Source: a virus
Lineage: Duplodnaviria; Heunggongvirae; Uroviricota; Caudoviricetes
DNA: 64,000 bases
Strand: one strand, 5' to 3'
IMG/VR virus record: IMGVR_UViG_3300029516_000004
Location: 31,480-95,479 of that record
Numbering within the stretch: position 1 is the stretch's first letter; each line of letters begins with the position of its first letter. The position numbers were made by a program, and so were the translations under genes. The notes beneath the pieces were generated by a model. That model saw only the letters and a list, made by a program, of their open reading frames with translations. It had not been told where the DNA came from and searched no databases. Below are positions 29,913 through 29,987 of the stretch, in pieces.

Positions 29913-29987
29913 CGGTAAGGGTACTTCGTAGGGATTCGAACCCTCTGCCAAGCTCGGCGATCTCCGACGTCGCAAAATACCCTTACC
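29913..29987 (-). other. tRNA-like element (degenerate or non-canonical)
   Basis: Perfect 7-bp acceptor-like stem GGTAAGG/CCTTACC and canonical T-arm AGGG-TTCGAAT-CCCT, but no recognisable D/anticodon arms and 8 extra nt before the 3' strand; directly abuts tRNA-Thr. Confidence 0.3.

What the first reader, a model, noticed from the sequence alone, without database searches (positions are those of the whole stretch)
29913..29987. tRNA-like remnant abutting tRNA-Thr
Immediately downstream of tRNA-Thr on the same strand is a 75-nt element with a perfect 7-bp acceptor-type stem (GGTAAGG/CCTTACC) and a canonical T-arm (AGGG-TTCGAAT-CCCT), but with no recognisable D or anticodon arm and 8 extra nucleotides before the 3' acceptor strand. 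It could be a degenerate fourth tRNA, a processing signal (tRNA-like structures are RNase P/Z substrates), or a recombination scar.
Basis: seen in the sequence. Interest (0 to 1): 0.4.

Follow-up and report, generated by a model that had tools for sequence, protein, structure and literature searches.

The report
Conserved tRNA-shaped hairpin in phage P1
Just after the tRNA-Thr gene of phage P1 lies not a decayed tRNA but a conserved, unannotated RNA hairpin whose tip copies the body of a tRNA without its anticodon arm; relatives occur in many enterobacterial phages, and its long stem is most likely an RNase III cutting site.

Summary
The window is phage P1, and the finding lies on the minus strand, 1-6 nt after tRNA-Thr in the ban-operon leader. 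The stem and T arm are real, but the description is incomplete. The "8 extra nucleotides" pair with UAUUUUG, giving a 15-bp stem plus 6 more bp (hairpin 29908-29994, z = -6.1). A D-arm-like hairpin is also present.

ARAGORN and Rfam call no tRNA here. The element is not a remnant. The same hairpin occurs in P1-like, lambdoid, Uetakevirus and virulent Klebsiella phages. Its stem covaries (16 of 30 pairs change on both sides; 0 of 500 shuffles reach this). A second sequence type keeps the same architecture with different bases in every helix.

It is one of four paralogous scaffold hairpins in the P1 leader. A family member in E. coli K-12 Qin lies where the RNase III-dependent 5' end of the 190-nt DicF precursor falls.

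Best reading: an RNase III punctuation hairpin carrying a selected tRNA-body mimic. Cleavage would free the tRNAs and release a roughly 60-nt tRNA-shaped RNA of unknown role. The annotated plp ORF on the other strand is probably spurious. Processing in P1 itself is inferred, not shown.

The parts
29908..29994 (-). Hairpin A, the whole element. It has a lower stem CACAAC/GUUGUG, a bulged A, a 15-bp main stem and a tRNA-like tip. The finding (29913-29987) is its inner part.
   Evidence: RNAfold MFE and z = -6.1. CM R1 scores 109.6 bits. Covariation is shown. Coordinates were checked.
29973..29987 (-). 5' arm of the main stem, GGUAAGGGUAUUUUG. Its inner 7 nt act as the acceptor 5' strand.
   Evidence: It pairs with 29914-29928. 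Fourteen of the 21 long-stem pairs show changes on both sides, and U.G is conserved at one position in 24 of 32 sequences.
29914..29928 (-). 3' arm of the main stem, CGAAGUACCCUUACC.
29957..29973 (-). D-arm-like hairpin GCGA-CGUCGGAGA-UCGC.
   Evidence: The stem and the GG are invariant in the type-1 copies. Loop positions 1 and 3 vary C/U. Type 2 has GCAU-AUCUGGGAA-AUGC, which is compensatory in 2 of 4 pairs.
29949..29956 (-). Stub that replaces the anticodon arm: CG-AGCU-UG, a 2-bp stem with a variable 4-5-nt loop.
   Evidence: Variants are CG/UG, CA/UG and GC/GC, with loops that differ in sequence and length.
29929..29945 (-). T arm: G.A plus AGGG/CCCU around the loop UUCGAAU. It abuts the 3' arm.
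   Evidence: The same 19-mer occurs in real phage tRNAs. The T stem covaries: UGGG/CCCA in Carvaje and GCGG/CCGC in Pylas.
29920..29979 (-). Predicted 60-nt apical product if RNase III cuts at the positions homologous to the K-12 site (29980|29979 and 29920|29919). This is an inference.
   Evidence: Arm-to-arm alignment with the K-12 Qin hairpin. The 190-nt DicF 5' end is taken and located. The mapping to P1 was done by hand on the coordinates.
29996..30071 (-). tRNA-Thr(UGU), immediately upstream on the same transcript.
   Evidence: ARAGORN and Rfam at 72.9 bits.
30074..30149 (-). tRNA-Asn(GUU).
   Evidence: ARAGORN and Rfam at 74.5 bits.
30348..30436 (-). Paralogous scaffold hairpin '0', upstream of tRNA-Asn, with a different tip.
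   Evidence: CM R1 at 17 bits, E = 0.07. Fold and arms GGUAAGGGCGCUG.../...CAGCGUCCUUUCC.
29667..29775 (-). Paralogous hairpin B. It has a 23-bp stem and a tip containing GGGGUCAUAUCCC.
   Evidence: Inverted repeat I1 and direct repeats D1/D3. Fold.
29409..29495 (-). Paralogous hairpin C, with the same scaffold GGUAAGAGCAUUC.../...GAAUGCUCUUUCC and a tip containing GGGUUCAUAUCCC.
   Evidence: CM R1 at 31.4 bits, E = 4e-6. Repeats D1, D3 and D5.
29298..29417 (-). STnc100-like module that follows hairpin C, in the 5' leader of tciA.
   Evidence: Rfam RF02076 at 34.8 bits, below its gathering score of 47. A full STnc100 (109.7 bits) follows the tRNA-like hairpin in L082.

Best explanation
The element is the apical part of a conserved ~87-nt RNA hairpin. 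It is transcribed with tRNA-Asn and tRNA-Thr from the C1-controlled ban promoter of P1.

The hairpin belongs to a family of 'scaffold' hairpins. Their arms read roughly ...AAC-A-GGUAAGRGCAUU / AGUGCUCUUWCC-GUUGUGG and form about 21 bp in total. They recur in non-coding, tRNA- and sRNA-rich stretches of enterobacterial phages.

The long stem is a double-stranded RNase III substrate. Cleavage would do three things:
- cut the tRNAs away from the downstream leader (STnc100-like modules, tciABC, trnI, ban);
- create the 3' trailer end of tRNA-Thr;
- release the tip.

In hairpin A the tip is a tRNA-body mimic under strong selection. It has a 7-bp acceptor-like helix stacked on a T arm, a D arm with GG, and a 4-5-nt variable loop. 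A 2-bp stub stands in place of the anticodon arm.

If RNase III cuts where it does in the K-12 homologue, the released RNA is about 60 nt, with a 7-bp acceptor stem and a 2-nt 3' overhang. That is a tRNA-sized, tRNA-shaped molecule that could be bound by factors recognising the tRNA elbow or minihelix (RNase P, TruB/TrmA, the CCA-adding enzyme, or tRNA-targeting toxins).

Shown: structure, conservation, covariation, strand and family membership. Shown only for a K-12 relative: RNase III dependence. Inferred: cleavage in P1, the size of the product, and any trans function.
For: (1) Identity and strand. The window is P1, and the element lies in the ban leader on the tRNA strand. A conserved U.G pair (24 of 32 sequences) would be a C.A mismatch on the other strand. 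The CM scores 80-110 bits on this strand against 12-29 bits on the reverse.

(2) Structure. z = -6.1. In alignment A2 (32 distinct sequences), 95% of cells are paired and 16 of 30 pairs change on both sides. Slid controls give 38-52% paired, and 0 of 500 shuffles reach the observed values.

(3) Selection on the tip. About 40 invariant columns persist across P1-like, lambdoid, Uetakevirus and other contexts, while the arms vary. Type 2 (Pylas-like, 18 loci) keeps the D stem, 9-nt YYGG loop, stub, V loop and T arm with different bases in each helix. The T stem covaries in Pylas and Carvaje.

(4) Family. Four paralogous hairpins lie in the P1 leader, and many more occur elsewhere with at least 8 tip types, all having a T arm against the 3' arm.

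(5) RNase III. The CM finds a scaffold hairpin in K-12 Qin at L182 13171-13262 (E = 8.6e-4, filters off), with matching arms. DicF ends at 13435, so 13435 - 190 + 1 = 13246, which is inside the 3' arm. The 190-nt DicF species disappears in a strain lacking RNase III, and its 5' end was mapped by primer extension (bioRxiv 10.1101/2023.04.14.536235). No other helix of 20 bp or more lies nearby. The two pairs between the predicted cuts are G-C in P1, and one is G-C in 30 of 32 sequences. This fits the in vivo rule reported in PMC6212723.

(6) Context. The hairpin sits next to tRNA genes in P1, Pylas, Carvaje, KP591P1 and L115. It precedes sRNA modules such as STnc100 and DicF. In lambdoid contigs it follows Q and a terminator, ahead of the lysis genes.

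(7) It is neither a terminator nor a promoter.
Against: - There are no RNA-end data for P1 itself.
- The K-12 hairpin is a weak CM hit (19.8 bits) with a different tip. The cut is placed from a nominal length of 190 nt, so it is uncertain by a few nt.
- Reviews attribute to RNase III a different DicF end, the 3' end of a 72-nt species.
- The D stem, the G25-C71 pair and the stub cannot be separated by covariation within type 1, because those columns are invariant. Part of that invariance comes from ascertainment by exact patterns.
- A plain RNase III site does not explain why the tip is a tRNA mimic.
- CRISPRi knock-down across this region has no effect on P1 plating (PMC10695390), so any function is dispensable in the laboratory.
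- P7 and Ro157c2 carry another tip at the same hairpin, so the tRNA-like tip is not required at this position.
Confidence: 0.55

Rival explanations
1. It is a decaying tRNA pseudogene or a recombination or integration scar left beside tRNA-Thr.
For: It directly follows a tRNA gene. Its T arm is identical to that of some real phage tRNAs. tRNA content at this locus varies among P1 relatives: an extra tRNA-Ser in P7 and D6, and tRNA-Tyr in Ro157c2. An evolutionary origin from a tRNA is plausible.
Against: The tip is near-invariant while the stem covaries across unrelated phages, most of which have no neighbouring tRNA. Type 2 preserves the architecture with different sequence. A blastn of the element against 5426 E. 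coli genomes found no host tRNA fragment. The acceptor-like strands co-evolve with each other, which is not expected for an att-type scar.
Confidence: 0.05
2. It is a mascRNA-like processing signal read by the tRNA maturation enzymes (RNase P at the 5' side, RNase Z/E at the 3' side), with RNase III playing no part.
For: The acceptor/T-arm minihelix and a D-loop/T-loop elbow are the determinants RNase P measures. The best Rfam resemblances, though far below threshold, are mascRNA (14.9 bits) and tRNA-Sec (14.6 bits). M. smegmatis YrlA, another tRNA mimic, is cut by RNase P and receives CCA (PMC4201824). From my own knowledge, P1 C4 RNA is matured by RNase P.
Against: The would-be +1 site is buried in a continuous 21-bp helix. 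There is no single-stranded leader and no 3' RCCA. In most variants the 3' strand reads GCUCUU at that place. S. Typhimurium YrlA, which lacks a 7-bp free acceptor stem, is not cut by RNase P.
Confidence: 0.15
3. The hairpin's main role is in trans. It would act as a tRNA decoy or mimic that binds a host or phage protein, such as a tRNA-targeting defence toxin, a modification enzyme or the CCA-adding enzyme. The long stem would serve only as a stable handle.
For: The tRNA core is extremely conserved, while the anticodon replacement is free to vary. The element spreads across temperate and virulent phages and often sits beside tRNA clusters. Architecturally it parallels Y RNAs: a long terminal stem plus a tRNA-like module.
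Against: No partner is known. The tip is replaceable in P7. The region is dispensable for plating. Sister hairpins on the same scaffold carry tips that are not tRNA-like.
Confidence: 0.2
4. The sequence is protein-coding. It would be part of plp (a putative lipoprotein, + strand 29648-30025), as annotated in the P1 reference.
For: The GenBank annotation. The + strand frame is open across the element in 23 of 25 variants.
Against: plp and upl match no Pfam family. plp starts at TTG, is Cys-rich, and ends inside the antisense of tRNA-Thr. Its 'RDSNP' and 'TDSNR' motifs are simply translated T arms. PGAP annotates nothing here in 474 E. coli records. P7 and Ro157c2 replace the tip with a segment 25 nt shorter (45 against 20 nt), which shifts the frame. 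RCS47 annotates plp elsewhere. The substitutions follow base-pairing, not codons.
Confidence: 0.03
5. It is a DNA-level repeat, such as a MITE with terminal inverted repeats, an attC-like recombination site or a cruciform, and not a functional RNA.
For: The arms are conserved and the centre is variable. There are multiple copies per genome. The lower stem CACAAC...GUUGUG resembles the integron RYYYAAC/GTTRRRY boxes (my own comparison).
Against: G.U pairs are strand-specific and conserved. The lower stem covaries instead of keeping a fixed box: GGCGAAAUC/GUUUUCGUC, CCCAC/GUGGG. Copies within one genome have different centres, unlike recent MITE copies. The element always lies on the transcribed strand of tRNA or sRNA units. 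No integrase or transposase is associated with it.
Confidence: 0.05

Closest known systems
Canonical bacterial or phage tRNA (Rfam RF00005)
   Same: A T arm with UUCGAAU and the G53-C61 pair. A D arm with a 4-bp stem and the YYGG...A loop. A G-rich variable loop. A 7-bp acceptor-type helix stacked on the T arm. Co-transcription with real tRNAs.
   Different: No anticodon arm: a 2-bp stub with a 4-5-nt loop takes its place. Type 1 has no U8/N9 linker and no A14. The acceptor helix continues for 14 more bp, so there is no free 5' end or NCCA 3' end. It is not called by ARAGORN or by the tRNA covariance model.
Bacterial Y RNAs (YrlA, RF02553; D. radiodurans Yrn1)
   Same: A long stem formed by the 5' and 3' ends, plus a tRNA-like module with D and T arms. 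They are found in bacteria and phages. Topologically the P1 element resembles Yrn1, where the terminal stem sits at the acceptor position (PMC4201824).
   Different: There is no YrlA hit on the element. The GNCGAAN0-1G Ro-binding motif is not present in the arms. No rsr gene is nearby. In YrlA the terminal stem sits at the anticodon position and the T arm precedes the D arm.
mascRNA/menRNA tRNA-like 3' modules (RF01684)
   Same: A tRNA-like cloverleaf with a reduced anticodon arm, embedded in a longer transcript and released by processing. It is the best, though insignificant, Rfam resemblance (14.9 bits).
   Different: It is eukaryotic and released by RNase P and RNase Z. Its score is far below the gathering threshold (42.5). 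The P1 element is enclosed in a long duplex.
RNase III processing hairpins (the DicF precursor in Qin, phage T7 R sites, rRNA operon stems)
   Same: A helix of 20 bp or more inside a polycistronic non-coding or tRNA-containing transcript. A family member coincides with the RNase III-dependent 5' end of the 190-nt DicF. The pairs between the predicted cuts are G-C rich.
   Different: Known RNase III sites are not described as carrying a conserved tRNA-like apical domain. Cleavage of the P1 hairpin is untested.
tmRNA tRNA-like domain
   Same: An acceptor/T-arm minihelix with a reduced D region and no anticodon arm.
   Different: tmRNA has a free CCA end, G3.U70 and an mRNA-like domain. No tmRNA match covers the element.

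Membership tests
tRNA gene | Recognised by tRNA finders or covariance models | tested here: not met
   ARAGORN finds 3 tRNAs in the window and none at 29908-29994. Rfam tRNA gives no match up to E = 10, even when only 111 nt are searched.
tRNA gene | Anticodon arm (5-bp stem, 7-nt loop) | tested here: not met
   Only 8 nt (CG-AGCU-UG) lie between the D stem and the variable loop. The loop varies in length and sequence among homologues.
tRNA gene | T arm with the T-loop consensus, directly followed by the acceptor 3' strand | tested here: met
   G.A plus AGGG/CCCU around UUCGAAU. The stem covaries in Pylas and Carvaje. One or two nt separate it from the 3' strand.
tRNA gene | D arm with G18 G19 | tested here: met
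   GCGA-CGUCGGAGA-UCGC in type 1 and GCAU-AUCUGGGAA-AUGC in type 2. Tertiary pairing with the T loop was not tested.
tRNA gene | 7-bp acceptor stem with free ends and a 3' NCCA | tested here: not met
   The helix runs on for 15 + 6 bp. The 3' strand reads ACCCUU in P1 and GCUCUU in most others.
YrlA / Y RNA | Match to RF02553 | tested here: not met
   The only YrlA hit (25.6 bits, gathering score 69) lies over the real tRNAs at 30012-30129, not over the element. None is found.
YrlA / Y RNA | Ro-binding helix motif GNCGAAN0-1G and a neighbouring rsr gene | tested here: not met
   The motif is as defined in PMC4201824. It is absent from the arms listed. The neighbours are tRNAs, tciABC, ban, Q and lysis genes.
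RNase III processing hairpin | Continuous helix of about two turns (20 bp or more) | tested here: met
   6 + 15 bp with one bulge. The helix is kept by covariation.
RNase III processing hairpin | RNase III-dependent cleavage mapped in the helix | tested here: inconclusive
   Met only for the K-12 Qin relative. The 190-nt DicF 5' end falls in its 3' arm and the species is lost without RNase III. The P1 hairpin cannot be tested with these tools.
STnc100 sRNA (RF02076) | Score at or above the gathering threshold | tested here: not met
   The element itself gives no hit. The neighbouring module at 29298-29417 scores 34.8 bits against a threshold of 47. A true STnc100 follows the hairpin in L082.
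Intrinsic terminator | GC-rich hairpin followed by a U tract | tested here: not met
   No terminator-like site lies at the element. The only one in 29200-30900 is at 30623-30645.
mascRNA-like tRNA-like module | Match to RF01684, and release by RNase P and RNase Z | tested here: not met
   14.9 bits against a gathering score of 42.5. The enzymology cannot be tested here.

The most novel reading that the evidence does not exclude
Enterobacterial phages, both temperate and virulent, encode a family of RNase III-excised mini-tRNAs that lack an anticodon arm. These are tRNA-body mimics of about 60 nt. After release they would act in trans on the host's tRNA-recognising machinery. They might titrate a tRNA-targeting defence enzyme, or be modified or CCA-tailed like tRNA. 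That would make them a phage counterpart of Y RNA or mascRNA-type mimics, hidden for 20 years under the 'plp' ORF of P1.
Probability: 0.2. Interest if true: 0.85.

Novelty: new variant of a known kind. Interest (0 to 1): 0.62.

Why it matters
P1 is a model phage, yet this stretch is annotated as a lipoprotein gene on the wrong strand. The analysis points to three things:

- A recurring RNA punctuation hairpin. It organises phage tRNA and sRNA operons: the P1 ban leader, the lambdoid late leader between Q and the lysis genes, the Qin dicBF operon, and the tRNA regions of Klebsiella phages.
- A conserved tRNA-body mimic mounted on that hairpin, which no Rfam family covers.
- A direct test. RNase III should cut here and release a tRNA-shaped RNA.

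If the released RNA is stable and bound by tRNA-recognising factors, it would add a new player to the contest between phage tRNA biology and host tRNA-targeting defences. If it is not, the hairpins still explain how DicF/STnc100-type sRNAs and phage tRNAs are cut out of long transcripts. They would also justify removing plp and upl from annotations.

Tried and rejected
- **tRNA or pseudogene calls.** ARAGORN and Rfam were run with E up to 10, on 5 kb and then on 111 nt only. No tRNA, tmRNA or YrlA call falls on the element.
- **Host-tRNA fragment or att scar.** blastn of a non-P1 variant of the element against 5426 E. coli genomes found only copies of the element. The loose pattern CGGAGATC-N10-22-GGGTTCGAATCCC in 185,579 species genomes returned 48 unrelated matches (about two-thirds real class II tRNA-Ser genes, the rest other tRNA-like or chance hits) plus one Escherichia copy. 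That scan said little.
- **Coding reading (plp/upl).** Rejected.
- **Terminator or promoter.** Rejected.
- **Integron attC or MITE idea.** It was suggested by CACAAC...GUUGUG. It was rejected because the lower stem covaries and the G.U pairs are strand-specific.
- **Y RNA membership.** Rejected.
- **Exact nucleotide of the K-12 RNase III cut.** The preprint gives 'positions 813/814' without a reference coordinate I could convert. The supplements of the RNase III cleavage atlas are not held. The mBio RNase III paper only cites DicF.
- **Literature on P1.** The Lobocka 2004 P1 genome paper is not held. Searches for a P1 transcriptome or for described tRNA-like phage RNAs found nothing on this element.
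- **Positional orthology of the BUCT554 and K-12 hairpins.** Pairwise alignment was too weak to claim it.
- **Regex parse.** A first regex parse of the cloverleaf failed and was replaced by exhaustive enumeration.
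Full report
**Where we are.** The window is bacteriophage P1. Positions 28000-31000 are 99.6% identical to AF234172, and the element is 100% identical. In the reference annotation the finding lies in the leader of the C1-controlled ban operon. On the minus strand the order is: Pban, a dicF-like region, tRNA-Asn, tRNA-Thr, about 730 nt without minus-strand genes, tciABC, trnI, ban. Two small ORFs, upl and plp, are annotated on the opposite strand. plp (29648-30025) covers the finding.

**The observation.** ARAGORN finds tRNA-Met(cat) at 28489-28564, tRNA-Thr(tgt) at 29996-30071 and tRNA-Asn(gtt) at 30074-30149, all on the minus strand, and nothing at the element. The stem GGUAAGG/CCUUACC and the T arm AGGG-UUCGAAU-CCCU are at the stated places.

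- The '8 extra nucleotides' pair with UAUUUUG. This gives a 15-bp stem, prolonged by CACAAC/GUUGUG beyond a bulged A.
- The whole hairpin is 29908-29994.
- Its energy is -42.7 kcal/mol against -25.3 +/- 2.9 for shuffles, so z = -6.1.
- Between the stem and the T arm lies GCGA-CGUCGGAGA-UCGC. This is a 4-bp stem whose 9-nt loop has the R15-Y16-Y17-G18-G19...A21 pattern of a D loop.
- It is followed by an 8-nt stub (CG-AGCU-UG) and GCAG, which resembles a variable loop.

Rfam gives no tRNA, tmRNA or YrlA match on the element, even when only 111 nt are searched. The best resemblances are mascRNA (14.9 bits) and tRNA-Sec (14.6 bits), both far below threshold.

**It is one of a set.** Repeat analysis shows three related long hairpins spaced 233-261 nt apart (families D1, D3 and D5; inverted repeats I1, I2 and I5). 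A covariance model built from the tRNA-like hairpins also detects two of its paralogues:
- hairpin C at 29409-29495 (31.4 bits);
- a fourth hairpin upstream of tRNA-Asn at 30348-30436 (17 bits).

All share the arms ...AAC-A-GGUAAGRGC... / ...GYUCUUWCC-GUUG... but carry different tips. Each of hairpins A, B and C is followed by a module that starts with GGUGAAU(G) or UGAUGAAG. For the last copy this module matches Rfam STnc100 at 34.8 bits, below the gathering score of 47.

**Relatives.** In P7 and Ro157c2 hairpin A keeps its stem through compensatory changes (GGUAAGAGCA/UGCUCUUACC) but has another tip that is 25 nt shorter. D6 has the P1 tip.

Outside P1-like phages, the same tRNA-like hairpin occurs in several settings.
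- **Enterobacter phage BUCT554.** It is a Uetakevirus with no tRNA nearby. The hairpin lies upstream of a DicF-like sequence.
- **IMG/VR contigs.** Pattern scans of IMG/VR returned about 130 loci.
- **Lambdoid contigs.** It lies between a Q antiterminator gene (PF03589 or PF06530) with a terminator and the holin/lysozyme genes. This is the late-operon leader.
- **L082.** A full STnc100 (109.7 bits) starts 17 nt after it.
- **Virulent Klebsiella phages.** More distant copies exist in Pylas (N4-like), Carvaje and KP591P1. They lie on the same strand as tRNA clusters and 100-800 nt from them.
- **E. coli genomes.** The element is present in 465 of 5426 complete genomes. Almost all copies are on P1-like plasmids, and PGAP annotates nothing there.
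- **Species representatives.** Only one Escherichia genome among 185,579 species genomes had it.

**Structure support.** On 25 distinct sequences, 93% of cells pair and 13 of the 21 long-stem pairs change on both sides. After adding Pylas and Carvaje (32 sequences):
- 95% of cells pair;
- 16 of 30 pairs have changes on both sides;
- the T stem covaries at 2 of 4 pairs;
- slid controls drop to 38-52% paired;
- no shuffle out of 500 reaches the observed values.

One pair is U.G in 24 of 32 sequences. Together with CM scores of 80-110 bits on this strand against 12-29 bits on the reverse, this indicates an RNA made from the tRNA strand.

Within type 1 the tip helices are invariant. That is partly because the copies were found with tip motifs, so those columns are uninformative.

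An independent scan anchored only on the T loop and the 3' arm recovered at least 8 tip types. In every type a T arm abuts the 3' arm. Exhaustive parsing shows that type 2 (Pylas-like, 18 loci) has the same architecture as type 1 with different bases in every small helix:

| Helix | Type 1 | Type 2 |
|---|---|---|
| D stem | GCGA/UCGC | GCAU/AUGC |
| Stub | CG or CA paired with UG | GC/GC |
| T stem | AGGG/CCCU | GCGG/CCGC |

Both types have a 9-nt D loop with YYGG. Type 2 has a 5-nt linker containing U and an A at D-loop position 14. Type 1 has neither. This looks like co-loss of the U8-A14 pair, which is my inference from tRNA knowledge.

**What the scaffold does.** With filters off, the model finds a scaffold hairpin in E. 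coli K-12 Qin, between ydfC and dicF, at L182 13171-13262 (19.8 bits, E = 8.6e-4). Its arms are CCAUAAC-G-CGAAAGCGCAUGG / CCGUGCGCUUCCG-GUUGUGG. DicF is annotated at L182 13383-13435.

The 190-nt DicF precursor depends on RNase III. It is absent in a strain lacking RNase III, and its 5' end was mapped by primer extension (bioRxiv 10.1101/2023.04.14.536235, which cites Faubladier 1990). Counting 190 nt back from 13435 gives 13246, in the 3' arm (GUGCG|CUUCCG). No other helix of two turns lies nearby.

Transferred by arm alignment, the P1 cuts would be 29980|29979 and 29920|29919. They would release a 60-nt RNA with a 7-bp acceptor-type stem and a CC 3' overhang (sequence printed). The two pairs between the cuts are G-C, as the in vivo RNase III rule prefers (PMC6212723).

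Caveats:
- The K-12 hit is weak.
- The site is placed from a nominal length.
- Reviews ascribe a different DicF end to RNase III.
- Nothing has been measured in P1.

**Interpretation.** The finding is the tip and upper stem of a conserved RNA hairpin. Its scaffold most likely serves as an RNase III punctuation site in phage tRNA/sRNA transcripts, and its tip is a selected mimic of the tRNA body without an anticodon arm.

Other readings fare worse.
- **Terminator:** no U tract follows the hairpin.
- **Remnant or scar:** excluded by the conservation, the covariation and the occurrence without tRNA neighbours.
- **Part of a real plp gene:** unlikely. There is no Pfam family, the start codon is TTG, 'RDSNP' and 'TDSNR' are translated T arms, the frame is broken in P7, and PGAP ignores it.

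The purpose of the mimic is open. It may stabilise the excised RNA or direct it to tRNA enzymes such as RNase P, TruB/TrmA or the CCA-adding enzyme, as happens for YrlA. It may instead act as a decoy. The region is dispensable for plating in the laboratory (PMC10695390), and P7 carries a different tip, so the function is accessory.

**Comparison with known systems.** The element works like a tRNA-like module on a terminal stem, as in Y RNAs, mascRNA or the tmRNA tRNA-like domain, and like an RNase III processing hairpin. It fails the membership tests for tRNA, YrlA, mascRNA and STnc100. I rate it a new variant of a known kind. It is of moderate to high interest, because it sits in a textbook phage, is widespread and unannotated, and yields a simple experimental test.

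Noticed in passing
window 29456-30025 (+): The annotated ORFs upl and plp lie antisense to a block of structured RNA hairpins. plp starts at TTG, has no Pfam family, and contains 'RDSNP' and 'TDSNR', which are translated T arms. PGAP does not call either ORF in E. coli P1-like plasmids. They look like annotation artefacts.
   Followed up: partly
window 29409-29495, 29667-29775, 30348-30436 (-): Three further hairpins sit on the same scaffold as the finding. Tips B and C share a 25-nt block, GUAACGGG(G/U)UCAUAUCCCAAUCUAC, with a T-arm-like GGG-UCAUAU-CCC. The purpose of these tips is unknown.
   Followed up: partly
window 29298-29417 (-), and the stretches after hairpins A and B: There is an STnc100-like module (34.8 bits, below the gathering score) in the tciA 5' leader. 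Two more degenerate units of the same layout follow hairpins A and B: a GGUGAAU... start, a small hairpin, and a closing CACC. The leader is therefore a threefold repeat of hairpin plus module.
   Followed up: partly
window 30605-30760 (-): The dicF-like region ends in the only terminator-like site of the leader (30623-30645). The stretch from 30760 downstream is 77.6% identical over 98 nt to the K-12 Qin segment between the RNase III hairpin and DicF.
   Followed up: partly
window 28489-28564 (-): The tRNA with anticodon CAU is called tRNA-Met by ARAGORN and Rfam. The P1 record annotates it as tRNA-Ile2 (an ileX-like, lysidine-dependent tRNA).
   Followed up: no
L004 2036-2122, L003 2748-2834, L002 3072-3158: The tRNA content of this locus varies among P1 relatives. 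P7 and D6 carry an 87-nt tRNA-Ser(UGA)-like gene just before hairpin C. Ro157c2 has a tRNA-Tyr inserted between Asn and Thr.
   Followed up: partly
L129 ~2640-2751, L014, L064, L091, L008: In lambdoid contigs the tRNA-like hairpin starts 5-15 nt after a terminator-like hairpin with a U tract, downstream of the Q gene. It should therefore be transcribed only by antiterminated, late RNA polymerase.
   Followed up: partly
L209 ~7137-7166, L198 ~5713-5739, L184 2424-2535: Other tips on the same scaffold look even more tRNA-like or more complex. L209 has two consecutive T-arm hairpins. L198 and KP591P1 have 60-70-nt tips with extra arms that resemble class II tRNAs.
   Followed up: no
window 30484-30652 (-): There are weak Rfam hits to permuted tmRNA (24.1 bits, E = 0.05) and beta-tmRNA over the dicF-like and terminator region. 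They are probably spurious.
   Followed up: no
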